In this document: positions 3,813 through 52,871 of the stretch, piece by piece | Position numbering within the stretch: position 1 is the first letter of the stretch | How the letters are laid out: every line of letters begins with the position of its first letter | Source of the DNA: Acidobacteriota bacterium | GTDB taxonomy: Bacteria; Acidobacteriota; Vicinamibacteria; Vicinamibacterales; UBA2999 | Direction: 5' to 3' | Length of the DNA: 57,693 nt | Assembly: GCA_023265015.1 (NCBI GenBank) | Contig: JAHFUO010000012.1 | Location: forward strand, 1 to 57,693 | Notes under the pieces: model-generated | What the model was told of the DNA's origin: nothing | Seen by the model: only the letters and a program-made list of their open reading frames with translations | Databases searched by the model: none | Position numbers and translations under genes: made by a program

Positions 3813-3898
3813 AACCACGAAGGCCACGAAAGACTCGAAGAACACGAAGACCTTACAAGGATTTCGTGACCTTCGCGATTTTCGTGAGCTTCGTGGTT
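3813..3898. repeat. oligomer-array hairpin, family C (9-nt period, CACGAAG units; termini AACCACGAA...TTCGTGGTT)
   Basis: Left arm aaccacgaaggccacgaaagactcgaagaacacgaagacc. Right arm atttcgtgaccttcgcgattttcgtgagcttcgtggtt is its imperfect reverse complement. Confidence 0.8.
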
Positions 3899-4720: not shown

Positions 4721-4907
4721 GGTTCTCAGGTTGCTTTGGTGCTTGGGTGCTCGGGTTCCGGTGCTCGGGTTCACGGGAACGCTCGTTCACTGGAAGGTTC
4801 TCACGTTCTGCCAGCAAGAAGTGAACCGATGAACGACCCGAGCACCTTGAACCCGAGTACCAGCGAACTGGAACCCAAGCACCCGAGCACCAGAGCAACC
4901 CTAGAAC
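4721..4907. repeat. oligomer-array hairpin, family A (about 187 bp; GGTGCTCGGGTTC-type units; termini GGTTCTCAGG...CCCTAGAAC)
   Basis: Left arm ggttctcaggttgctttggtgcttgggtgctcgggttccggtgctcgggttcacgg. Right arm ...gaacccgagtaccagcgaactggaacccaagcacccgagcaccagagcaaccctagaac is complementary. Fills the convergent spacer between vapC and the methyltransferase. Confidence 0.8.
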
Positions 4908-5595: not shown

Positions 5596-5723
5596 TCTGG
5601 TTGGCCTCCGGGAGGGCGGCTGTCCGAGCCTTCGTGTGAGGCGTGAAGTCCACCGACAGCGAAGCGGACCGCGCGACTATAGCGTTGTCAGGTGTGGATG
5701 GACAAGCCCCGATTTGCCTAGAT

Positions 5724-5807
5724 CAGTTGTCAGTTGCCCGTAGTCAGCTCTCAGTCGTGTTCCGCTTGGGATCGAACTGAGAACTGGCCACTGGGAACTG
5801 AAAACTG
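5724..5807. repeat. oligomer-array hairpin (7-nt period, CAGTTGT / reverse-complement AACTG units)
   Basis: Left cagttgtcagttgcccgtagtcagctctcagtcg. Right cgaactgagaactggccactgggaactgaaaactg (imperfect reverse complement). Confidence 0.75.
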
Positions 5808-8102: not shown

Positions 8103-8136
8103 CAATTCCCAATTCCCAACCCCCCAACTCCCAAGG
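8103..8136. repeat. one-armed heptamer array (CAATTCC-type), C-rich on + strand
   Basis: caattcc caattcc caacccc ccaactc ccaagg. Confidence 0.7.
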
Positions 8137-9530: not shown

Positions 9531-9626
9531 ATTGACGGATTTACGAATCTACGAATTGACGAATTTGGATTCTTCGATTTCAATTCCAATTCGAATCCGT
9601 AAATTCGTAAATTCGTAAATTCGTCC
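9531..9626. repeat. oligomer-array hairpin, family B (8-nt period, TTACGAAT/ACGAATTG units)
   Basis: Left gacggatttacgaatctacgaattgacgaatttggattc. Right gaatccgtaaattcgtaaattcgtaaattcgtc. Occupies the whole 97-nt kinase/regulator spacer. Confidence 0.85.
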
Positions 9627-11104: not shown

Positions 11105-11979
11105 CCGATCGGCATGCGTCGGTCGTCCGCGTTCTCCGCCGCGTTCTCATCCTGAACCTCGCCGTCTCGGCCGCGAAAATCGCGCTCGGCGCCTACACGG
11201 GCGCGATCTCGATCCTCTCCGACGGATTTCATTCGCTCAGCGACGCCGCCTCGAACGTCGTCGCGCTCGTCGGCGTCTCGGCCGCGCAGCGTCCGCCCGA
11301 CCGGGACCATCCGTACGGCCATCGCAAGTACGAGACGATGGCGTCGCTCGCCATCCTGGTCTTCATGATCATCGTGCTGGTTCAGATCTCGGAGACCGCG
11401 GTGGAGCGGCTGCGGCACGCCAGCACGCCGACGGTGCTGCCCGCCAGCGTCCTGGTGATGCTCGCGACGCTCGCCATGAACGTACTGGTCGTGCGCTACG
11501 AGTCGAGAGAAGGCCGGCGCCTGAACAGCCAGATCCTGGGCGCCGACGCGAAGCACACCCGAAGCGACGTGTGGACGGCGAGCGCGGTGCTCGCGGCGCT
11601 CGTCGGCGCGTGGCTCGGGTACCCGCGGCTGGATCCATTCGCCGGCCTGGTGGTGGCGGGCTTCGTCGGTCACGCCTGCTGGCAGATTGCGAGGGACGCC
11701 TCAGGCGTCCTGGCCGACCACATCGTCATCGCGGAAGAAGGCATCCGATCGGTGGTGGAGCCGACGCCCGGGGTGATCGGGTGCGAGAAGATTCGCACGC
11801 GCGGGCCGGCGGACAGCGTGTTCGTCGACCTGCACCTCTGGATCGATGGGCGGACGCCGCTTGGTGAAGCGCATGCGATCTCACATGTCGTGAAGGACCG
11901 GCTGATGGCGCGGTTCCCCCAGGTGGTCGACGTGGTCATCCATATCGAGCCTCCTCACGAAAACCCCAAACCCCAATAG
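11074..11979 (+). CDS. cation diffusion facilitator (CDF) metal efflux transporter
   Basis: SDGFHSLSDAASN and HPYGHRKYE motifs, C-terminal cytoplasmic domain. Only in-frame start near the TM1 region is GTG 11074, which overlaps the lepB end, so the start is uncertain. The last codons (HENPKPQ) lie in a heptamer array. Confidence 0.8.
   Translation: MADSDRSRVLTDRHASVVRVLRRVLILNLAVSAAKIALGAYTGAISILSDGFHSLSDAASNVVALVGVSAAQRPPDRDHPYGHRKYETMASLAILVFMIIVLVQISETAVERLRHASTPTVLPASVLVMLATLAMNVLVVRYESREGRRLNSQILGADAKHTRSDVWTASAVLAALVGAWLGYPRLDPFAGLVVAGFVGHACWQIARDASGVLADHIVIAEEGIRSVVEPTPGVIGCEKIRTRGPADSVFVDLHLWIDGRTPLGEAHAISHVVKDRLMARFPQVVDVVIHIEPPHENPKPQ
11956..11979. repeat. short heptamer array ending CAATAG (left flank of the A/T-richer island)
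   Basis: cacgaaaaccccaaaccccaatag. Compare with 14258-14304. Confidence 0.65.
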
Positions 11980-11997
11980 TTTTTAAGCCATTAGGTC

Positions 11998-12885
11998 ATG
12001 AAAAAATGTGTCTCGGTGGCTGTCCTCGACCTCGACAACACCCTTTTCGATTGGTTCAGCATCTGGTTCGCCTCCTTTGGCGCGATGCTCGACGTTCTAG
12101 TCGACCAGAGCGGCATAGATCGCCAGCAACTGACGTCCGACTTTCACTTGGTTCACCAACACCACCAAACGTCTGAATATGCCTTCTCAATTTCAGAGCT
12201 GCCATCGCTGCGATCTAAGCATCCTGACGCGGACCCGCGGGACCTATACCAGGACGCAATCGATGCCTTCCGTGCCGCCGAGTCGGCCAATATGCGGCTA
12301 AACCCCGGCGTAGCTGAGACTCTGAGATGTTTGAAGCGGGCGGGCGTGCTGTTGGTCGCCTACACAGAATCGTTGGAGTTCTACGCGTGCTACCGCCTTA
12401 TCAAGCTGGGTCTCGACGAGCAGATCGATTACTTGTATTCCCCTCCTGACCACGCGCTACCAGCCAACATGACACCGGATCAGATCCGACACTACCCTCC
12501 CTCGCACTACGTGCTGCGACACACCCAACGACGAAACACGCCGCGGGGTGAGCTAAAGCCGAACCCGCACCTTCTGAAACAGATCATCGAGGAAGTCGGG
12601 GGCACCATCGAATCAACGTTCTACGTGGGCGACAGCAAGATGAAGGACATCGCGATGGCGAACGCCGCCGGCGTGACCAGTGTTTGGGCGAAATACGGCG
12701 CATCACCGCCCACGCAGCAATACACGCTGTTGCAGCAGGTCACTCACTGGTCTCCCGAGGACGTAGCAAGGGAGGAGGCCATCAAGAACGGCACCGCAGG
12801 GAAAGACTTGATTCCGAGCGTCACCCTCAGAAATACGTTCGACGAACTCCTGGCTCACTTCGAGTTTTCGAGGCACTCCGCATGA
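11998..12885 (+). CDS. HAD-superfamily hydrolase
   Basis: Motif I VLDLDNTLFDW and motif IV-like YVGDSKMKDI. Visibly lower G+C than the flanks. Confidence 0.75.
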   Translation: MKKCVSVAVLDLDNTLFDWFSIWFASFGAMLDVLVDQSGIDRQQLTSDFHLVHQHHQTSEYAFSISELPSLRSKHPDADPRDLYQDAIDAFRAAESANMRLNPGVAETLRCLKRAGVLLVAYTESLEFYACYRLIKLGLDEQIDYLYSPPDHALPANMTPDQIRHYPPSHYVLRHTQRRNTPRGELKPNPHLLKQIIEEVGGTIESTFYVGDSKMKDIAMANAAGVTSVWAKYGASPPTQQYTLLQQVTHWSPEDVAREEAIKNGTAGKDLIPSVTLRNTFDELLAHFEFSRHSA

Positions 12886-12993
12886 GCGACTTTACGTTTG
12901 CGGGGCTCACGGTCGAAGAAAGTCGCCGCGGTCAGCCAAGTCCGGCCGCTGCTTCGCTCATGTGCGGTTTACAATCGAATCGGAGAAAAACAG

Positions 12994-13923
12994 GTGAAAC
13001 ACGCTGAGGACGCGCAGAACAGCCCCATCGTCTGGAAGAGCGATGATGGCAAGTCTCAGTTGCACAACGTCGACTGTCTCGAGTTCATGGAGCGCCTGCC
13101 GGCCGACAGCATCGACTGCATCTGGACGGACCCGCCGTATCTGCTTTCGAACGATGGAATCACCTGCGTGGCGGGGCGCATGGTCAAGGTCAACAAGGGT
13201 GAGTGGGACCGCAGCCGTGGCGTTGACCTGGACCATGAGTTCAACCGGACATGGCTGGCGGCCTGTCATCGCGTTCTGAAGCCCGCTGGCGCGATTTGGG
13301 TAAGTGGCACCTTACACGTCTACCTGAGCGTCGGCATGGCGATGCAGCAGCTAGGATTCCGCATTTTGAACGACATCGTTTGGGAGAAACCTGCCCCCCC
13401 TCCAAACCTCGGCTGCCGCTGCTTCACCCACTCGACCGAGATCTTGCTCTGGGCGACGAAGGCGAAGAAGGGGAGCAAGGATAGGCACACATTCAACTAC
13501 GAGGCAATGAAGGAGGAGAACGCCGGCAAGCAGATGAAGAGCGTGTGGCGCTTCTCGACGCCGAGCGACGAAGAAAAGCGACTCGGGAAGCACCCAACTC
13601 AGAAACCGATTGCTCTCATTGCTCGGTGCCTTCGTGCAACGACAGATCCTGGGGACTTGGTTTTCGACCCGTTCTCAGGGTCCGGTTCGACCGGTGTGGC
13701 TGCAATGAAGTTGGGGCGTCATTTCGTGGGGTGCGAACAGGACCAGACCTGCGCGGCCCTTGCTGCCCGCCGGCTGAACGAGGCGGCCCCCGGTGAGATC
13801 GCAGATACCAACGCCACTTCGGCTTCCGGTCTGCGGGGCCGGCAGCAAGCTCTGTCGCGAAAGCCTAGGTCGCGTGGATCGCGCCGAGGCCCTCATTCGG
13901 CTCAAGACGCTCATCGGCTTTGA
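12994..13923 (+). CDS. beta-class N4-cytosine/N6-adenine DNA methyltransferase
   Basis: Motif IV TDPPY precedes motif I FDPFSGSGSTG (N6_N4_Mtase, PF01555-type order). GTG 12994 with GGAG 8 nt upstream. The 3' tail overlaps the next ORF. Confidence 0.85.
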   Translation: MKHAEDAQNSPIVWKSDDGKSQLHNVDCLEFMERLPADSIDCIWTDPPYLLSNDGITCVAGRMVKVNKGEWDRSRGVDLDHEFNRTWLAACHRVLKPAGAIWVSGTLHVYLSVGMAMQQLGFRILNDIVWEKPAPPPNLGCRCFTHSTEILLWATKAKKGSKDRHTFNYEAMKEENAGKQMKSVWRFSTPSDEEKRLGKHPTQKPIALIARCLRATTDPGDLVFDPFSGSGSTGVAAMKLGRHFVGCEQDQTCAALAARRLNEAAPGEIADTNATSASGLRGRQQALSRKPRSRGSRRGPHSAQDAHRL

Positions 13924-14236
13924 CCTTGTTGATCTTGGCACGCGGTCGGGTGTCACAATTTGGAAGGGCGAGCGCATCAACAAGGGCTGGGCCGGCCACA
14001 CAATCGAGCGGCATCTCGGCCTGCCTTTGAATTCGTCCCGGTCGCCTCACTTCGGCTCTTGGGAACTGAAGGTCGTCCCTGTTCGACGGCTCCCTGATGG
14101 CACCATCCATCACCTCAGCGGATCAATGGGTGCGCTCGTGCAACCGCGCACCAAAGGACCGGGTCACGGCAGCACATCGCGGGCGTTCTACGCGCGATCG
14201 AGAACGGTCGCGAGAATTCTCGGCGTCACGGCCTGA
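13874..14236 (+). pseudogene. decayed MvaI/BcnI/MutH-like restriction endonuclease (N-terminal half only)
   Basis: INKGWAGHTIERHLGLPLNSSRSPHFGSWELKVVP resembles the G-x-x-G-x-x-x-E-R/LG...D-x4-E-x-K core of BcnI/MvaI (MutH-like). His sits where the catalytic Asp is expected. The ORF ends about 45 aa after ELK, whereas family members are about 230-250 aa. Confidence 0.55.
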
Positions 14237-14263
14237 TAGAGGCGGCGACCTCACCGCCACGCG

Positions 14264-14304
14264 AAAATCCCAAATCCCAAAGCCCAAATCCCAAACCTCA
14301 ATAG
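14264..14304. repeat. one-armed heptamer array (AAATCCC units) ending CAATAG (right flank of the island)
   Basis: aaaatcc caaatcc caaagcc caaatcc caaacct caatag. Contains the stop codon of the convergent dehydrogenase gene. Confidence 0.75.
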
Positions 14305-15281
14305 CCGGCTTCCACATCGACGACGTTCAGCAGCGTATCGCCGCGCTCGTAGCGTCGCAGGTTTTCTGAAAAGAGATCGATGACCGCATCGAAGTGATCT
14401 GTGCGGAAGCCGGACGTGTGCGGCGTGACGATGACGTTCGGCATGGACCAGAGCGGGCTGTCGGGCGGCAGCGGCTCCGTCGTGAAGACGTCGAGCACGG
14501 CGCCTCCCAGCTTCCCGCTGGCCAACGCCTCCGCCAGCGCCGCTTCGTCGACGAGTTGACCGCGCGCGACATTGATCACCACCGCGCCAGGCTTCATCCT
14601 CGCGAGCGCCGCCGCGTCGAGAATCCGATCGGTGCCGCTCGTCCATGGCGCGGCGAGCACCAGGACGTCGGCGGCCGTGAGGATGCGATCCAGGCCCGAT
14701 CGACCGACCACTTCGTCCACGCCCGCCGGGTCGTTGCGGCCGGGATTCCGCCGCATCCCGATCACGCGCATGCCGAAGGCTTTGGCGCGCGTGGCAATCG
14801 CCTGCCCGAGGGTGCCAAGGCCAATCACGCCCAGCGTCTTGCCCGCGACGAGCCACGGCGAGGCCGCGCCCGTCATCTGGTCCGGCAGCCAGACGCGCTG
14901 GTCCTGGTCGCGCAGCGCCCGCGGCAGGCGCCGCGCGAGCGCGAGCAGGCACCCCATCACGTGCTCGGCGATCGGCGTTGATTGGACGCCGCGCGAGTTG
15001 GTCACCGTGATTTCCCTTGCGGCAAGGTCACCAAGCGGAAAATGCCCAACGGCGTGCGCCGAGCCGTGCAGCCACCGGAGCCGCACGGCGCGAGCCACCG
15101 CTTCCTTGCCCATCCCCAGGGCAAAGACGATGTCGGCGTCCGGCGCCAGCGTCAGATCGGAATCGCGACTGAGGGAGTGAAGAAACGTGACGTGAGGGAA
15201 CCGCGCGCGAAGCTGCTCGACGTGCGTCGCGGGAATCGTCCATGCGACAACTCGATGATGGATGGCGACGAGAACGTTCAT
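14298..15281 (-). CDS. D-isomer-specific 2-hydroxyacid dehydrogenase (NAD-binding)
   Basis: [13 protein letters not shown] Rossmann motif, catalytic-domain pattern, ATGA overlap with moaC. Confidence 0.85.
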
Positions 15282-18506: not shown

Positions 18507-19667
18507 GTGACCGGTCCAACCACGAAAGCACGAAGACTTCGAAGGTCACGAACGTACATTTGGTTGTTCGTGGTCTTCGGGATTTTCGTGTCTTCGTGGT
18601 CTGGACAGAACAGTGTCGGTGCCCAGACCGCCGCGCGCCGGCTGACCACGCTCGACGCCCTCCGCAGGTTCTCCGGCTACTTTCATCTCCAGTACGTCGT
18701 CCTGCGCGGCGAGTTCGCCGAAGCGGGCACTCGCGTCGTCTTCCGCGGCGGCGACAACGAGATGCAGGTCATGCTGAACGACGCGAGCGCAACGCCGGGG
18801 CCGGTCGAAATGCGCGCGCAGTTGATCGATGTCGGGCGCCTCACAACTACCGACCCGCGGCTCGCGCGCTACGAGAATCGTCCCGACCCTGAGCACTGGC
18901 CGATGCCCGGCGATGAGCTGCTGCTCAGCGTCTCCAGCGTCGCCAGCGCGGAGCCGACCGCGACACCCACGATCCGCGCGCTGACGCTCGAGCCATGGCG
19001 CTTCGAGGGGCAGTCCGTGACGGTGACCGGCCAGTTCGGAGGACGCAACCTGTTCGGCGATCTCCCGGCGGCGCTGGCGAAAGACAAATACGATTTCGTG
19101 CTGCGCGGCACCGAAGGCGCCGTGTGGGTGACCGGACTCCGGCCGAAGGGCAAGGGGTTCGATCTGAATGTCGACGCGCGGGTCGACACGAATCACTGGG
19201 TCGAGGTGACAGGCACCGTCAAGCGCGAACGCGGACTGGTCATGCTGCAGGCCCGGACGATCGTCGCGGCGTCGGCGCCCGCGAGAAAGGTGGTCATCGA
19301 GGAGGCGCCACCACCACCGAAAGAACCCGGCGAGGTCGTCTTCAGCTCGCCTACTGATGGTGAGACGGACGTGTCCGCCGGCAGCCCCATCCGCGTGCAG
19401 TTTTCACGCGGCATCGATCCGCCGACGCTCACCGGGCATCTGCGAATCGGCTACGTGGGGGCTCCGCCGGCAGCGGCATCGGGTCCGCCGGCGACAATCG
19501 AGGTGCGGACGTCCTATGACTTCGGTACGCGGGCAGTGGAGATCAAGTTCTCGAAGCCGCTCGAGGCGTACCGGACGGTGAAGGTGGAACTCCTCGACGG
19601 CGTAAAAACCTTCGACGGCGCGCCCATCAAGCCCTGGACGCTGACCTTCTCCGTCGGCGCGAATTAG
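18507..19667 (+). CDS. hypothetical secreted protein with a C-terminal Ig-like (SbsA_Ig-type) domain
   Basis: ORF from GTG 18507. Predicted signal peptide TKARRLRRSRTYIWLFVVFGIFVSSWSGQNSVGA. C-terminal VVFSSPTDGETDVSAGSPIRVQFSRGIDP Ig-like motif. Start uncertain. Confidence 0.6.
   Translation: MTGPTTKARRLRRSRTYIWLFVVFGIFVSSWSGQNSVGAQTAARRLTTLDALRRFSGYFHLQYVVLRGEFAEAGTRVVFRGGDNEMQVMLNDASATPGPVEMRAQLIDVGRLTTTDPRLARYENRPDPEHWPMPGDELLLSVSSVASAEPTATPTIRALTLEPWRFEGQSVTVTGQFGGRNLFGDLPAALAKDKYDFVLRGTEGAVWVTGLRPKGKGFDLNVDARVDTNHWVEVTGTVKRERGLVMLQARTIVAASAPARKVVIEEAPPPPKEPGEVVFSSPTDGETDVSAGSPIRVQFSRGIDPPTLTGHLRIGYVGAPPAAASGPPATIEVRTSYDFGTRAVEIKFSKPLEAYRTVKVELLDGVKTFDGAPIKPWTLTFSVGAN
18518..18600. repeat. 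oligomer-array hairpin, family C
   Basis: Left aaccacgaaagcacgaagacttcgaaggtcacgaacg. Right ttgttcgtggtcttcgggattttcgtgtcttcgtggt. Lies inside the predicted 5' end of the next CDS. Confidence 0.8.
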
Positions 19668-24206: not shown

Positions 24207-24379
24207 GTGTCCCCCGTAGCAGGAAGAATGATGGTAGGGCCGGTGTCGAGCCGGTAACTGCGACGACAAGTATAGCCCACCTGCCCGAGATCAGCAACGA
24301 AAAACGCCCGAAAAATGGGTGTTTTGGTCGGTTTGTCTGACTGCTGCACGGAATGACGCTTTTGGTGGGGTGTCCTCAT

Positions 24380-24410
24380 CCCGAATCCCGAATCCCGAAT
24401 CCCGAATCCC
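24380..24410. repeat. (CCCGAAT)4CCC heptamer array, non-coding copy
   Basis: Four perfect tandem units immediately 3' of the ATP-grasp gene stop. Identical to the array inside uvrA. Confidence 0.9.
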
Positions 24411-24415
24411 GAGAC

Positions 24416-39903: not shown

Positions 39904-42810
39904 ATGCCCGAGTCCATAAAGCCGTCCCGTGGTCCGCTCATCGTTCGCGGCGCGCGCACGCACAACCTGAAGAACGTCGACGTCACGCTGCCGAATGGCA
40001 AGCTCGTCATCTTTACCGGCGTGAGCGGGTCGGGCAAGTCGTCGCTTGCCTTCGACACGATTTACGCCGAAGGCCAGCGCCGCTACGTCGAATCGCTCTC
40101 CGCCTATGCCCGGCAGTTCCTCGAGCGGATGGAGAAGCCGGACGTCGACAAGATCGAGGGCATCTGCCCGGCGATCGCGATCCGCCAGAAGAACAGCGTT
40201 CGCAACCCGCGCTCGACGGTCGGCACGACCACTGAGATCCACGACTACATGCGCCTGCTCTACGCGCGCGTCGGCCGGACGTTCTGCCGGCAGTGCGGGC
40301 AGGAGGTGATTCGCGAGACGGCTGAGATCGTGGCGAGGCGGCTGGCCGACCTGCCGGTCGACACGCGCGTGCTGATCGGATTTCAGATCCCCGTTGTCGC
40401 GATGTCGGCTGCCCCGGCGAAGGACGCGGGCGGCGACCCAGACGCGTCCGACGAGCTGTTCGAAACGGAGCAGGACGGGGATCCGATTGCCGAGACGCTC
40501 GACGGTCTGCAGCGCCGCGGCTACGCCCGCCTGTTGATCGACGGGCGCGCGGTGACGTTCGACGAGATCGATCGTGCCGCACTCGATGACAGGACCACGC
40601 TCGACGTTGTCCTCGATCGCGTGAAGATTGAAGGCGACCTGCGCAGCCGCCTGACGGATTCGATCGAGACGTCGTATCGCGAGGGCGGAGGAGCGGCCTT
40701 TGCGATCGTGCTCCCGAATCCCGAATCCCGAATCCCGAATCCCCACAGGATCGAGTTCTCAGAGCGTTTCGAGTGCAGAAGCTGCGGGATCGCCTACGAG
40801 ACCCCGCAACCGCGGCTCTTCTCCTTCAACAACCCATTCGGCGCCTGCCCGACGTGTCACGGCTTCGGCAACATCATCGAGCTCGACATGGACCTGGTGA
40901 TCCCGGACCAGTCGAAATCGATCATCGAGGGCGCGATCGAGCCGTGGAGCAAGCCGCACTATCGATCGCAGCTGGCCGAATTGAAGCGCGCCGCGCGCAA
41001 GTCGGCCGTCCGCCTCGACGTGCCGTGGTCGGAGCTGACCGACGACGAGCGGAGGTTCGTGATCGAGGGCAACGATGCCTACGACGGCATCCGCGGATTT
41101 TTCCGCTGGCTCGAGCGCAAGAAATACAAGGTGCACGTCCGCGTGTTCCTGAGCCGCTATCGCAGCTATCTTGCCTGTCCCGATTGCGGCGGCGCGCGCC
41201 TTCGCCGCGAGGCGCGTGACGTCCGCGTGGGCGATCGGACGATTGACGCCGTCTCGGCGCTCACCGTCCGCGAGGCGCAGGCGTTCTTCTCGGAGCTCAA
41301 GCTGTCGGAAAAGGAGTCGACGGTTGCTGACAAGGTCCTGCGCGAGATTCGCCGCCGGCTTTCTTTCCTGAGCGACGTCGGCCTCGACTACCTGACGCTC
41401 GATCGCCTGTCGTCGACGCTGTCGGGCGGCGAGTCGCAGCGCATCAACCTGGCGACCTCGCTCGGCTCCGCGCTCGTCGGCACGCTGTATGTGCTGGACG
41501 AGCCGTCGATCGGCCTGCACTCGCGCGACAACAGGCGGCTCATCGACATCCTTCAACAGCTTCGTGACCAGGGGAACACCGTGCTGGTCGTCGAGCACGA
41601 CGAGGACATGATTCGCGTCGGCGATCACATCGTCGACATCGGCCTCGGCGCCGGCGAGCAGGGCGGCAAGGTCGTCTACTCGGGCGACTACGCGGGATTG
41701 CTCCAGGAGCCGCGGTCGCTCACGGCGAAGTACCTGCGCAACGAGCTCGCGATCCCCGTGCCGTCGCCGCGGCGCAAGGGGCTCGCGCAGAAGATCCGGC
41801 TCACGGGCGCCAGCGAGCACAATCTCAAGGACATCGACATCGAGGTTCCGCTGAACGCGCTGACGTGCGTCACGGGTGTGAGCGGATCGGGGAAGTCGAC
41901 GCTGGTGCACGACGTGCTCTACGCCGCGATCAAGCGGGCCAAGGGCGACTGGGATCGCCGCGTCGGCGCCTTCCGCGAGCTGCATGGGCTCGAGTACATC
42001 ACGGACGTCGTGCTGGTCGATCAGACGCCGATTGGCCGCACCCCGCGATCAAACCCGGTGACCTACCTCAAGGCGTTCGATCCGATCCGCGAGCTGTTTG
42101 CGTCCACGAAGGACGCCCGCGCGCGCGGCCTGACCGCCAGCCACTTCTCCTTCAACGTGCCCGGCGGGCGCTGCGAGGCGTGCCAGGGCGAAGGCGTGGT
42201 GCGCGTGGAGATGCAGTTCCTGGCCGACGTGTTCGTGCCGTGCGAGCAGTGCGACGGCATGCGCTTCAAGTCGCAGGTCCTCGAGGTGCGTTACAAGGGC
42301 AAGAGCGTGCACCAGGTGCTCGAGATGACGGTGCGCGAGGCGTTGACCTTCTTCGGCACGTCTCCGAAGGTACTGCGGCGGCTGCAGGTGCTCGACGAAA
42401 TCGGCCTCGGCTACCTCCGCCTCGGTCAGCCGGCGACGACGCTGTCAGGAGGGGAGGCGCAGCGAATCAAGATCGCGGCGCACCTGGCGTCGTATGGCGG
42501 CGAGCGATTGCTGTACATCCTCGACGAGCCGACCACGGGCCTTCACTTCGACGACATCGCGAAGCTTCTGGCCGCGTTCAAGAAGCTGGTCGAGGCCGGC
42601 CACACGCTGATCGTCATCGAGCACAACCTCGATGTGATCAAGACCGCCGACTACGTCATCGATCTCGGTCCCGAGGGGGGCGACGGGGGCGGCGAGGTGA
42701 TTGCCACGGGCACGCCAGAGCAGATCGTGCAGGTGGAGGCATCGTTTACCGGTCAGGCGCTGCGTCAGGTGCTCGCGGCCGGCAGAGCCAATGCCTACGC
42801 GACCCGATAG
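39904..42810 (+). CDS. uvrA: excinuclease ABC subunit A
   Basis: [18 protein letters not shown]..., [34 protein letters not shown], two ABC modules, zinc fingers. ORF 39121..42810 trimmed to ATG 39904. Confidence 0.97.
40713..40743 (+). repeat. (CCCGAAT)4CCC heptamer array inside the uvrA coding sequence
   Basis: ctC CCG AAT CCC GAA TCC CGA ATC CCG AAT CCC Cac, translated [10 protein letters not shown]. Identical to 24380-24410. Confidence 0.95.
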
Positions 42811-45606: not shown

Positions 45607-45707
45607 AATTTACGAATCCACGAATTGACGAATTGACGAATTGGAATTTTCCATTGCATGGATCAATCCACATCCGTCAATTCGTAAGTTCGTCAATTCG
45701 TCAATTC
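45607..45707. repeat. oligomer-array hairpin, family B
   Basis: Left aatttacgaatccacgaattgacgaattgacgaattgg. Right ccgtcaattcgtaagttcgtcaattcgtcaattc. Spans from the leuD stop to (and including) the LysR stop. Confidence 0.85.
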
Positions 45708-47941: not shown

Positions 47942-48021
47942 CGGTTGGTGGATGGTGGTTTGCGGTTGGTGGACCACGAACCAGCATCCACTAACCACCA
48001 ACCACCAACCACTAACCACCC
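47942..48021. repeat. oligomer-array hairpin (7-nt period, GGTTGGT / ACCAACC units)
   Basis: Left cggttggtggatggtggtttgcggttggtgg. Right cactaaccaccaaccaccaaccactaaccaccc. Includes the mscS stop and its last two Gly codons. Confidence 0.8.
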
Positions 48022-51320: not shown

Positions 51321-51407
51321 AACCGCGAAGACCACGAAAACCGCGAAGGTCACGAAACAAACCTTTAGAATATTTCGTGTGCTTCGAGATCTTCGTGATT
51401 TCGTGGT
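51321..51407. repeat. oligomer-array hairpin, family C
   Basis: Left aaccgcgaagaccacgaaaaccgcgaaggtcacgaaac. Right atttcgtgtgcttcgagatcttcgtgatttcgtggt. Confidence 0.8.
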
Positions 51408-51417
51408 GTAGATACGT

Positions 51418-52065
51418 ATGGACGTAGTCCGGCACCAACCCAATCAGGGCTGGATTGAAGTCATCGTCGGCAGCATGTTCAGCGGCAAGAGCGAAGAGCT
51501 GATTCGCCGCCTGCGCCGCGCGCAGATCGCGCGCCAGAAGGTCCAGATCTTCAAGCCGACGGTCGACACCCGGTACGCCGACGACGATATCGTCTCCCAC
51601 AGCGACATGCGGATCTCCTCTCGCGCGGTCAGCACCTCGCGCTCGCTGCTGGACCTGGTCGAGACGGACACCGAGGTCGTCGGGATCGATGAGGGGCAAT
51701 TCTTCGACCAGGAGCTGCCGGCCGTGTGCAACGAGCTTGCGGATCGCGGCACACGCGTCATCGTGGCGGGCCTCGACCAGGATTATCTCGGCAAGCCGTT
51801 CGAGCCGATGCCGCAGCTGCTCGCGATCGCCGAGTACATCACCAAGACCCTCGCGATCTGCATGGTGTGCGGCAACCCCGCCAATCACACGCAGCGCCTC
51901 GTGTCGAGCGGCGACCGCGTGCTCCTCGGCGCGCAGGGCACCTACGAGGCGCGCTGTCGTGCCTGTTTTGATCCGAGCCTTGCGGGTGTACCGGCAAAGC
52001 CCAAATCCCACGCCCCAACAGAGGCCCGATCCCCGATCCCCAATCCCCGATCCCCGAAGGTGTAG
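51418..52065 (+). CDS. tdk: thymidine kinase
   Basis: [13 protein letters not shown]-loop, IDEGQFF, C-terminal CMVCG...CRAC zinc motif. The last 13 or so codons run through a heptamer array. Confidence 0.9.
52025..52059. repeat. one-armed heptamer array (CCCGATC units), C-rich on + strand
   Basis: cccgatc cccgatc cccaatc cccgatc cccgaag, preceded by aaagcccaaatccc. Confidence 0.8.
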
Positions 52066-52633: not shown

Positions 52634-52634
52634 G

Positions 52635-52871
52635 GGTTCTCGGGTGCACGGGTGCACAGGTGCACGGGTTCGGTTCACGGGTTCACGGGTGCACGGGTTC
52701 ACGGGTTCGGTTCACGGGTTCACGTTGACGGGACCCTGGTTGAAGGGTGCTCGGGGCGGTTCAAGTTCTTCATTTGCATCGACTTCACGAACCCGAACCC
52801 CACCCGTGAACCTCGAACCCGAACCCTCGAACCGAACCCGTGCACCCGTGCACCCATGCACCCTGAGAACC
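52635..52871. repeat. oligomer-array hairpin, family A, largest copy (about 237 bp; termini GGTTCTCGGG...CCCTGAGAACC)
   Basis: Left arm is tandem GGGTGCAC/GGGTTCAC/GGGTTCGG octamers. Right arm is the reverse complement (gaacccgaac..., gtgcacccgtgcaccc). Ends 16 nt before the ku start. Confidence 0.85.

What the first reader, a model, noticed from the sequence alone, without database searches (positions are those of the whole stretch)
11956..14304. A/T-richer 2.3-kb island (HAD hydrolase, DNA methyltransferase, endonuclease remnant) is bracketed by two halves of a heptamer array ending CAATAG
The left flank is cacgaaaaccccaaaccccaatag (11956-11979). The right flank is cacgcgaaaatcccaaatcccaaagcccaaatcccaaacctcaatag (14258-14304). 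Both are direct repeats of the same A3-4/C3-4 heptamer array and both end in CAATAG. Between them, the sequence is visibly richer in A/T than the surrounding DNA and carries three co-oriented genes unrelated to their neighbours. Without the island, the CDF gene and the dehydrogenase gene would be convergent across a single array, like many other spacers here. This suggests the arrays act as insertion or recombination hot-spots for foreign cassettes. No integrase or transposase is present. The HAD hydrolase riding with an R-M module has no obvious role and could be cargo or an uncharacterised accessory component.
Basis: partly seen in the sequence, partly recalled or inferred. Interest (0 to 1): 0.65.

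Follow-up and report, generated by a model that had tools for sequence, protein, structure and literature searches.

The report
Decayed defence islet, duplicated gene junction
A 2.3-kb piece of foreign DNA carrying worn-down anti-phage genes sits between two normally back-to-back genes of a groundwater Acidobacterium (Vicinamibacterales), flanked by two copies of the short repeat-filled junction it landed in; it is a tidy example of an ordinary genomic-island scar.

Summary
Two same-strand A3-4/C3-4 heptamer arrays ending in CAATAG bracket 11980-14253. That segment has the lowest G+C in the window (0.593 vs 0.653±0.022) and holds three co-oriented foreign genes.

Ten relatives have CDF and the dehydrogenase directly convergent, 14-128 nt apart, usually across AAATCCC/AAACCCC arrays. 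None of about 100 related loci carries the three genes, so the empty-site test is passed.

The flanks are not two halves of one array. They are two diverged copies of the whole junction: the last CDF codons (PP[H/R]ENPK), the array, and the dehydrogenase's terminal CAATAG. They match at 25 of 30 positions, with one 21-nt length difference. Four of the five differences are synonymous.

The cargo is a decaying defence cassette:
- The HAD protein is the hydrolase of the known Hydrolase-TM anti-phage system, here without its membrane partner.
- A β-class MTase sits next to a MutH/Sau3AI-like endonuclease that has an 83-residue in-frame internal deletion.
- An intervening 192-aa gene, present in sister copies, has been deleted.

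Sister copies (79-87% nt identity) lie in integrase-, IS- and defence-rich contexts. One HAD homologue rides a tRNA-Thr island with 48-nt att repeats.

The most likely history is Campbell-type integration at the junction followed by loss of the integrase. Arrays as general hot-spots remains weakly supported.

The parts
11113..11979 (+). CDF-family cation efflux gene (native). Its last 10 codons (PPHENPKPQ*) run through the left repeat.
   Evidence: Pfam Cation_efflux 6e-44 plus ZT_dimer; NCBIfam CDF. Orthologues are in conserved synteny in about 100 loci.
11950..11979 (+). Left junction copy (DR-L): CCTCCTCACGAAAAC-CCCAAA-CCCCAATAG. It contains the heptamer array 11961-11976 and the CDF stop TAG.
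   Evidence: It resembles the native CDF end and array of empty-site relative L097 (CCTCCTCATTAGGAAACCCCAAATCCCAAACCCC).
11980..11997 (+). 18-nt linker TTTTTAAGCCATTAGGTC between the CDF stop and the HAD start. It marks the left edge of the foreign DNA.
   Evidence: Nucleotide homology to the sister HAD copy in L081 starts at 11997. No promoter-like site was found.
11998..12885 (+). HAD-like hydrolase, the 'Hydrolase' component of the Hydrolase-TM anti-phage system. Catalytic motifs are intact (DLDNT, KPNP, GDSKMKD). The membrane partner is absent.
   Evidence: PADLOC PDLC03008, 3.9e-74, residues 1-292 on profile 1-284/288. Pfam HAD families. 43 of the 120 best homologues are about 450-517-aa fusions to the TM domain.
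12889..12941 (+). Deletion scar. These 53 nt replace about 680 nt that hold a 192-aa gene in sister cassettes. The 41-aa ORF 12882-13007 is probably not a gene.
   Evidence: L090 and L091 carry the HAD 3' remnant, the 192-aa gene, then MTase and REase. L081 carries HAD plus the same 192-aa gene.
12994..13923 (+). Beta-class (DPPY) N6/N4 DNA methyltransferase with its domain intact. A 1-nt deletion near 13853-13863 removes the normal stop and adds 17 residues.
   Evidence: Pfam N6_N4_Mtase 3.6e-54. PDB best hit is CcrM 6pbd, 2.3e-56. 87% nt identity to L089-L091, and the C-terminus was compared directly.
13874..14236 (+). MutH/Sau3AI-like type II endonuclease with an in-frame internal deletion of residues 79-161 (junction at 14106/14107). 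It is probably inactive.
   Evidence: tblastn against the 204-aa REase of L089: residues 1-78 are 92% identical and 162-202 are 88% identical, in the same frame. L089 REase: Pfam MutH 1.3e-11; PDB Sau3AI 2e-5; PADLOC REase_II.
14240..14253 (+). 14 nt (AGGCGGCGACCTCA) of unassigned origin between the end of the R-M cassette homology and the right junction copy.
   Evidence: Homology to L089-L091 stops at about 14229-14239.
14254..14304 (+). Right junction copy (DR-R): CCGCCACGCGAAAAT..(5 heptamers)..CCTCAATAG. Read in the CDF frame it gives [16 protein letters not shown]. It is a displaced CDF 3' end and overlaps the dehydrogenase stop.
   Evidence: 25/30 identical to DR-L apart from a 21-nt (3-unit) length difference. 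4 of the 5 differences are synonymous (sequence).
14298..15281 (-). D-2-hydroxyacid dehydrogenase (native). Its stop TCA(rc) and last codon lie within CAATAG.
   Evidence: Pfam 2-Hacid_dh_C 2.9e-56. Relatives end tcagtagcc / ctaatagcc.

Best explanation
The segment 11980-14253 is a horizontally acquired, now decaying defence cassette. It consists of the hydrolase of a Hydrolase-TM system followed by a type II restriction-modification pair.

It entered the 3'-to-3' junction between the CDF and dehydrogenase genes by a Campbell-type (single-crossover, circular-intermediate) recombination. That kind of event leaves the incoming DNA between two copies of the junction, and it keeps both flanking genes intact:
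- CDF ends in the left copy.
- The dehydrogenase ends in the right copy.
- The right copy holds a displaced CDF tail.

The recombinase was most likely a tyrosine integrase carried on a larger element. The integrase, a 192-aa gene, the membrane partner of the hydrolase and the middle of the endonuclease were then lost by deletion.

What remains probably behaves as an orphan methyltransferase plus a lone hydrolase, transcribed by read-through from CDF.

Shown: foreignness, the empty site, duplication of the junction, gene identities and lesions, and the mobile contexts of sister copies.

Inferred: the circular intermediate, the integrase, the order of events and the expression.
For: Empty sites. 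L001 and L002 (genomes) and L093, L095, L096, L097, L100, L112, L119 and L120 (metagenomes) have CDF and the dehydrogenase 14-128 nt apart. No HAD, MTase or REase hit occurs in about 100 related loci.

Composition. Island G+C is 0.593, the lowest in the window. The cassette keeps 0.56-0.61 G+C in hosts of 0.62-0.67.

Duplicated junction. Both flanks carry the CDF-terminal motif and the dehydrogenase-terminal CAATAG. The motif is unique to them in 1.07 Mb. Both copies stay in frame from the PP codons to the TAG. 4 of the 5 substitutions are synonymous.

Mobile relatives. The R-M part is 87% nt identical to cassettes in L089 (integrase fragments, RepA, ParA) and in L090/L091 (SIR2-HerA, IS66, DDE). 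HAD is 83% nt identical to the L081 copy, which lies next to IS3.

A direct analogue. L082 is an 8.9-kb tRNA-Thr island with perfect 48-nt att repeats, an integrase and AlpA, and it carries a 72%-identical HAD plus its TM partner.

A second hit at the same junction. L094, the locus with the dehydrogenase most similar to the window's (80%), has a different island there whose edge is a truncated Phage_integrase gene abutting the array.

No terminal inverted repeats were found.
Against: - No integrase, excisionase or recognisable att core is in the window.
- The two copies are only 83% identical, and their longest identical runs are 6 nt. Any site-specific core is therefore eroded or was never there.
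- No excised or empty form was seen in the four source-study runs.
- The 14 nt at 14240-14253 are unexplained.
- Heptamer arrays mutate by slippage, which weakens any argument built on their exact sequence.
- The synonymous-difference signal rests on only 5 sites, two of them at the naturally variable T/C position of the heptamer.
Confidence: 0.6

Rival explanations
1. Break-and-repair duplication. Linear foreign DNA was captured at a staggered or hairpin-associated break in the array-bearing spacer. Fill-in synthesis or template switching then duplicated the 30-50-bp junction, giving a long target-site duplication without any site-specific recombinase.
For: There is no recombinase gene in the island. 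In relatives the junction is a strong hairpin (L001 spacer -68 kcal/mol, z = -10.5), the sort of structure that stalls replication and breaks. Both copies contain the complete junction.
Against: A fresh duplication should give identical copies that then decay neutrally. Instead, 4 of 5 differences are synonymous in the CDF frame and both copies stay in frame. Known transposition and repair duplications are much shorter. Sister cassettes travel in integrase and IS contexts.
Confidence: 0.15
2. Split array. One ancestral array was cut once by the insertion. The flanks are its two halves, and the arrays themselves are the recombination substrate.
For: Relatives L095 and L100 have a single C-rich array between the genes. 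L094 has another island abutting the array. The left copy has 2 units and the right copy has 5.
Against: A single cut cannot put the CDF-side prefix (CC.CC.C.CGAAAA) on the right flank and the dehydrogenase-side CAATAG on the left flank. Both motifs are otherwise absent next to arrays in 1.07 Mb. No other array-bracketed cassettes occur at this junction in about 100 loci. Comparable heptamer repeats are reported in regions of increased stability (PMC4692102).
Confidence: 0.1
3. Import by homologous replacement. The island-plus-duplication structure arose in another Vicinamibacterales lineage. It reached this genome by double crossover in the flanking conserved genes (CDF side and dehydrogenase/MoaC side), so no integration event happened here.
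For: The flanking genes are conserved at 76-96% among relatives. The two junction copies look like two different natural CDF-tail alleles: CCTCCT as in L097, and CCGCC as in L001, L095 and L100.
Against: It only moves the origin of the structure elsewhere. No other lineage with the island at this site was found apart from near-identical strains of the same population (L088 at 99.5%, and L173).
Confidence: 0.1
4. Assembly artefact. The AAATCCC array is shared by many genomes in the community, and the assembler joined island and dehydrogenase wrongly across it.
For: Word depth jumps to 17-368x over 14152-14399 in all four runs. Logan contigs break inside the right array.
Against: A 2,691-nt contig spans the CDF end, left copy, island and most of the right array (L088). 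The gene after the array is exactly the syntenic one. An independent NCBI MAG contig (L173) has the same join. The 30-nt overlap includes the distinctive AAAGCCC unit.
Confidence: 0.03

Closest known systems
Integrase-type genomic islands inserted in the 3' end of a gene and flanked by attL/attR direct repeats (for example L082 here: a tRNA-Thr island with 48-nt repeats carrying a HAD homologue)
   Same: Foreign composition and an empty site in relatives. Imperfect direct repeats made of the target gene's 3' end. The target gene stays intact at one end, with a displaced 3' fragment at the other. Defence cargo.
   Different: No integrase is left. The target is a protein-gene 3'/3' junction filled by a heptamer array rather than a tRNA. 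The repeats are 83% identical rather than exact. Only 2.3 kb remains.
Hydrolase-TM (DefenseFinder Rst_Hydrolase-3Tm) anti-phage system from P4-satellite hotspots (Rousset et al. 2022, PMC9122126)
   Same: The HAD protein matches the PADLOC hydrolase profile over its full length (3.9e-74). Homologues are fused to, or followed by, the matching TM protein.
   Different: The TM component is missing here, so the system is incomplete. The host is an Acidobacterium, not E. coli. Activity is untested.
Type II R-M systems with MutH-fold endonucleases (Sau3AI, MvaI/BcnI) and beta-class MTases (CcrM/HinfI-like)
   Same: An adjacent MTase-then-REase pair. The MTase carries DPPY and an N6_N4_Mtase domain. 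The REase is MutH/Sau3AI-like.
   Different: The REase lacks residues 79-161. The MTase has a frameshifted tail. The recognition site is unknown. Sister copies carry an extra uncharacterised 192-aa gene upstream.
G/C-tract heptamer simple-sequence repeats near stop codons (GGGAATC in Xanthomonas and GGGGA(C/T)T in Nostoc, Rehm et al. 2015, PMC4692102; cyanobacterial STRR, from my own knowledge)
   Same: Heptamer units with a 3-4 G/C tract. They lie within tens of nt of stop codons, are often in inverted pairs, and vary in number and sequence between relatives.
   Different: Here they occur in Vicinamibacterales, alongside 8- and 9-nt unit families, and often run into coding 3' ends. The published repeats were linked to stability, not insertion.
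Defence-island hotspots between conserved core genes
   Same: Variable mobile or defence content between fixed flanking genes. Two independent occupants were seen (the window and L094).
   Different: Occupancy is low (2 of about 100 loci). Most length variation at this junction is ordinary lineage-specific genes.

Membership tests
Integrase-mediated genomic island | Absent from the same site in close relatives (empty site) | tested here: met
   Ten loci have CDF and the dehydrogenase 14-128 nt apart.
Integrase-mediated genomic island | Flanking direct repeats that include the target gene's 3' end | tested here: met
   11950-11979 versus 14254-14304: 25/30 identical plus a 21-nt gap, and both are in the CDF frame.
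Integrase-mediated genomic island | Integrase/recombinase gene at one end | tested here: not met
   Pfam and NCBIfam on all island ORFs found no recombinase. Only sister contexts carry one.
Integrase-mediated genomic island | Atypical base composition | tested here: met
   G+C is 0.593 against 0.653 +/- 0.022. GC3 is 0.70-0.735 against 0.82-0.93.
Transposon / IS | Transposase, terminal inverted repeats and a short target duplication | tested here: not met
   No transposase domains. No terminal inverted repeats. The repeat is 30-51 nt long.
Hydrolase-TM anti-phage system | HAD-like hydrolase matching the system's profile | tested here: met
   PADLOC PDLC03008, 3.9e-74, full length.
Hydrolase-TM anti-phage system | Adjacent or fused transmembrane partner | tested here: not met
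   Only a 53-nt scar and a 41-aa ORF with no match follow HAD. The partner (PDLC03009) is present in P0039, L086 and L082.
Hydrolase-TM anti-phage system | Protects against phage | not testable with these tools
   This needs expression and phage challenge.
Type II restriction-modification system | MTase with an intact catalytic domain (FxGxG, DPPY) | tested here: met
   Pfam N6_N4_Mtase profile positions 1-219 of 221. TDPPY is present. 92% identical to 291-aa homologues.
Type II restriction-modification system | Intact cognate endonuclease | tested here: not met
   Residues 79-161 of the 204-aa homologue are deleted in frame.
G-tract heptamer SSR class (Rehm et al. 2015) | Tandem heptamers with a G3-4/C3-4 tract within about 50 nt of a stop codon | tested here: met
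G-tract heptamer SSR class (Rehm et al. 2015) | G-quadruplex / i-motif formation | not testable with these tools
   This needs CD spectroscopy or similar. The left copy, with 2 units, has too few tracts.

The most novel reading that the evidence does not exclude
In Vicinamibacterales, the hairpin- or G4-prone heptamer arrays at gene 3' ends may themselves be the recognition and crossover substrate for a class of tyrosine-recombinase islands, in the way integron attC or dif sites serve structure-reading recombinases. Integration would then duplicate an array-bearing junction. The same arrays would later act as end-points for the deletions that strip the islands down to defence-gene scars.
Probability: 0.1. 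Interest if true: 0.7.

Novelty: new member of a known kind. Interest (0 to 1): 0.33.

Why it matters
This is a clean, fully dissected example of how defence genes arrive and erode in an uncultured soil and groundwater phylum.
- It has a documented empty site and a duplicated junction that preserves both flanking genes.
- Its cassette (Hydrolase-TM hydrolase, a 192-aa unknown, MTase, MutH-like REase) can be followed through five other mobile contexts in different states of decay.
- It extends the Hydrolase-TM family to Acidobacteriota.
- It flags a 192-aa protein that travels with the R-M pair.

It also tempers the idea that the abundant heptamer arrays of this clade are general insertion hot-spots. 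The evidence here amounts to two occupants of one junction.

Tried and rejected
1. I first read ATAGAG at 14236-14241 as a relic of the CDF codons ATCGAG. This was rejected: ATAG aligns with the stop region of the R-M cassette in L089-L091.
2. The ungapped alignment from 11950/14254 is better and stays in frame.
3. Laying the contigs of four runs from the source study on 11300-15000 found no joint that skips the island. The listed joints have 20-34-nt sides and are noise. The runs are held only as contigs, so read pairs could not be checked.
4. An exact-pattern scan of metagenome contigs for the CDF-tail motif (ATCGAGCCNCCNCNCGAAAAYCCCAAA) returned nothing.
5. Observed/expected counts for GATC, GANTC, CCWGG and CCSGG are 0.90-0.97. 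This gives no clue to the MTase specificity.
6. The promoter/terminator scan of the island found no promoter-like site and only chance-level terminators.
7. I looked for same-family arrays bracketing the extra genes that other relatives carry between CDF and MoaC. None were found. Those inserts are ordinary lineage-specific genes.
8. The orphan copy of the MTase in another Vicinamibacterales genome (L092) is not flanked by arrays.
9. A literature search for descriptions of these arrays in Vicinamibacter or Acidobacteria found nothing specific.
Full report
**1. What is in the sequence**

Tandem Repeats Finder reports AAACCCC x2.3 at 11961-11976 and AAATCCC x4.4 at 14265-14295. CAATAG occurs three times in the window, two of them at these flanks.

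The enclosed DNA (11980-14257) is 0.593 G+C. Equal-sized windows elsewhere average 0.653 +/- 0.022, and this is the lowest stretch in the window. Its genes have GC3 of 0.70-0.735, against 0.82-0.93 for the neighbours.

Pfam and NCBIfam confirm five genes:
- a CDF transporter (11113-11979);
- a HAD hydrolase (11998-12885);
- a beta-class N6/N4 methyltransferase (12994-13923);
- a MutH/MvaI_BcnI-like fragment;
- a D-2-hydroxyacid dehydrogenase on the opposite strand (14298-15281).

The left array is translated as the CDF tail (...IEPPHENPKPQ*). On the right, CAATAG is the dehydrogenase's last Tyr codon and stop, read from the other strand.

**2. Organism and empty-site test**

A scan of species-representative genomes with the CDF protein returned 55 Vicinamibacterales/Acidobacteriota loci. 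All have the backbone LytTR, signal peptidase, CDF, then (dehydrogenase) MoaC and Rex on the opposite strand. A metagenome scan with the dehydrogenase added 45 more.

Among the loci with the highest CDF identity (84-87%: L001, L002, L093, L095, L096, L097, L100, L119), and also in L112 and L120, the two genes are directly convergent with 14-128 nt between them. No locus gives a tblastn hit to HAD, MTase or endonuclease. The empty site is therefore well documented.

The spacer is usually made of AAATCCC/AAACCCC heptamers. It is either one C-rich array (L095, L100) or a C-rich array facing a G-rich one (L001, L097, L119). The L001 spacer folds at -68 kcal/mol, z = -10.5. Neither flank in the window folds better than shuffled sequence.

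**3. The flanks are two copies of the junction, not two halves**

The best alignment is ungapped from 11950 and 14254:
- left: CCTCCTCACGAAAACCCCAAA, a 21-nt gap, then CCCCAATAG;
- right: CCGCCACGCGAAAATCCCAAA, then TCCCAAAGCCCAAATCCCAAA, then CCTCAATAG.

Twenty-five of 30 positions match. The length difference is exactly three heptamers, so both copies read in frame from the two Pro codons that end every CDF orthologue (…HIEPP) to the TAG. The left copy gives PPHENPKPQ* and the right copy gives [16 protein letters not shown].

Four of the five substitutions are synonymous third positions. That would be expected if the copies are two natural CDF-tail alleles rather than a fresh duplicate decaying neutrally. 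The sample is only five sites, and two of them sit at the naturally variable T/C position of the heptamer.

The prefix pattern CC.CC.C.CGAAAA occurs nowhere else in 1.07 Mb of loci scanned on both strands. None of the other AAANCCC arrays there is followed by CAATAG.

AATAG on the right is dehydrogenase sequence shared with relatives (ctaatagcc, tcagtagcc). Its presence after the left array therefore means the dehydrogenase end was copied too. A single cut through one array cannot produce this arrangement. A duplicated junction, or an attL/attR-like pair, can.

**4. The cargo**

*HAD.* The HAD protein matches PADLOC profile PDLC03008 ('Hydrolase') over its full length (3.9e-74). Its homologues are either followed by, or fused to, a membrane protein that matches PDLC03009 ('Hydrolase-TM'):
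- 43 of the 120 best hits are 405-517 aa long;
- P0039 and P0010 are fusions;
- L086 has a separate 201-aa partner;
- L082 has a truncated partner.

[quoted passage not shown] Equating the PADLOC model with that system is my inference from the names. In the window the HAD catalytic motifs are intact, but no membrane partner follows.

*R-M pair.* Window 12942-14229 is 87% nt identical to cassettes in L089, L090 and L091, where a 291-aa MTase is followed by a 204-aa MutH/Sau3AI-like endonuclease. The window's endonuclease keeps residues 1-78 and 162-202 in one frame and lacks 79-161. The MTase has a 1-nt deletion two codons before its normal stop, which adds 17 residues.

*The missing gene.* L090 and L091 also carry, upstream of the MTase, a 192-aa gene with no Pfam or PADLOC match. 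Before that gene lies a 130-nt remnant of the HAD 3' end, 79% identical to window 12759-12888. L081 has the HAD gene (83% nt) followed by the same 192-aa gene and an IS3 element.

The ancestral unit was therefore HAD, the 192-aa gene, MTase and REase. The window has lost the 192-aa gene, leaving a 53-nt scar at 12889-12941. The cassette keeps 0.56-0.61 G+C in hosts of 0.62-0.67.

**5. How it got there**

Sister copies sit in mobile or defence settings:
- L089 has integrase fragments, RepA and ParA.
- L090 and L091 have SIR2-HerA, IS66 and DDE transposases.
- L081 has IS3.

L082 is a textbook case. It is an 8.9-kb island in tRNA-Thr(CGT), bounded by perfect 48-nt repeats of the tRNA 3' half. 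AlpA and an integrase sit next to the tRNA, and the HAD-TM pair sits at the far end.

L094 has the dehydrogenase most similar to the window's (80%). It carries a different island at the same junction. Immediately after the dehydrogenase stop and a short array comes the last 83 codons of a tyrosine recombinase (Pfam Phage_integrase 1.2e-11), followed by an HSDR_N protein, a GH16 protein, a DUF1353 protein and an rve transposase.

Taken together, these favour Campbell-type integration of a recombinase-bearing element at the CDF/dehydrogenase junction, followed by reductive deletion. The window has no recombinase, no terminal inverted repeats and no conserved core longer than 6 nt, so the recombinase step is inferred.

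The rivals are described in their own sections: break-repair duplication, a split array, import by homologous replacement and mis-assembly. The mis-assembly risk comes from the 17-368x depth spike over the right array. It is low because a 2.7-kb contig covers everything up to the array, the next gene is the syntenic one, and a separate NCBI MAG contig shows the same join.

**6. Are the arrays hot-spots?**

The window has at least 15 spacers filled with 7-, 8- or 9-nt unit arrays, many of them as inverted pairs. The orthologous CDF spacer carries quite different units in different relatives.

At this junction only two of about 100 loci hold mobile DNA. The other length variation is ordinary genes not bracketed by arrays. 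Similar heptamer repeats in Xanthomonas and Nostoc were reported in regions of increased stability (PMC4692102). The hot-spot idea is therefore not excluded, but it is weakly supported.

**7. Verdict**

The feature is a decayed defence islet with attL/attR-like copies of the target junction. That makes it a new member of a known kind, of moderate-to-low interest.

Noticed in passing
window 3816-3895, 4732-4897, 5723-5807, 8103-8134, 9531-9624, 18567-18602, 24378-24412, 31735-31763, 35230-35300, 40712-40743, 45607-45707, 47973-48020, 51321-51405, 51990-52057, 52634-52863: At least 15 intergenic spacers are filled with tandem arrays of 7-, 8- or 9-nt units. Many form an array facing its own reverse complement, giving long hairpins that start right after a stop codon. 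I found no description of this for Vicinamibacterales in the held literature.
   Followed up: partly
L001-L055, 3' end of the CDF gene: The same orthologous spacer carries unrelated repeat units in different relatives (AAATCCC, CCCAACT, CAGTAGG, GGGATCC, CCTGGGT, GAAGTGC, GGAAAGT). The arrays often run into the CDF reading frame and give lineage-specific C-terminal tails (IPNPKSQIPNPNR, PGSGIGDPGSE, TPNSQ...) after the conserved HIEPP.
   Followed up: partly
L094 2460-7459: A different mobile island occupies the same dehydrogenase-side junction. It holds an 83-codon C-terminal remnant of a tyrosine recombinase butted against the array, then an HSDR_N nuclease-like protein, a GH16 protein, a DUF1353 protein and an rve transposase. 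The CDF side lies beyond the fetched part of the contig.
   Followed up: partly
L090 5342-5920; L091 4537-5115; L081 1843-2365; L089 5824-5916: A 192-aa protein with no Pfam or PADLOC match sits immediately upstream of the MTase and MutH-like REase pair, and immediately downstream of HAD in L081. It could be a third R-M component (a second nicking subunit or a controller) or a replacement partner for the hydrolase.
   Followed up: no
L082 68-115 and 8961-9008: Perfect 48-nt direct repeats (the 3' half of tRNA-Thr CGT) bound an 8.9-kb island. It carries an integrase, AlpA, PadR and a HAD-TM pair whose TM gene is truncated to 91 aa.
   Followed up: yes
L084/L085 4343-6900 and 7120-10450: Another HAD homologue (53% identity) overlaps the stop of a 553-aa PUA-like plus metallophosphatase protein. 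It lies beside two radical-SAM genes and HxsD, which may be a different defence-like module.
   Followed up: no
window 14152-14399: Word depth rises to 17-368x in all four groundwater runs over the AAATCCC array and the dehydrogenase 3' end. Many community members therefore share near-identical arrays, which is a hazard for metagenome assembly.
   Followed up: partly
whole window: CTAG is strongly under-represented (16 observed, 43.6 expected). GATC, GANTC, CCWGG and CCSGG are near expectation.
   Followed up: no
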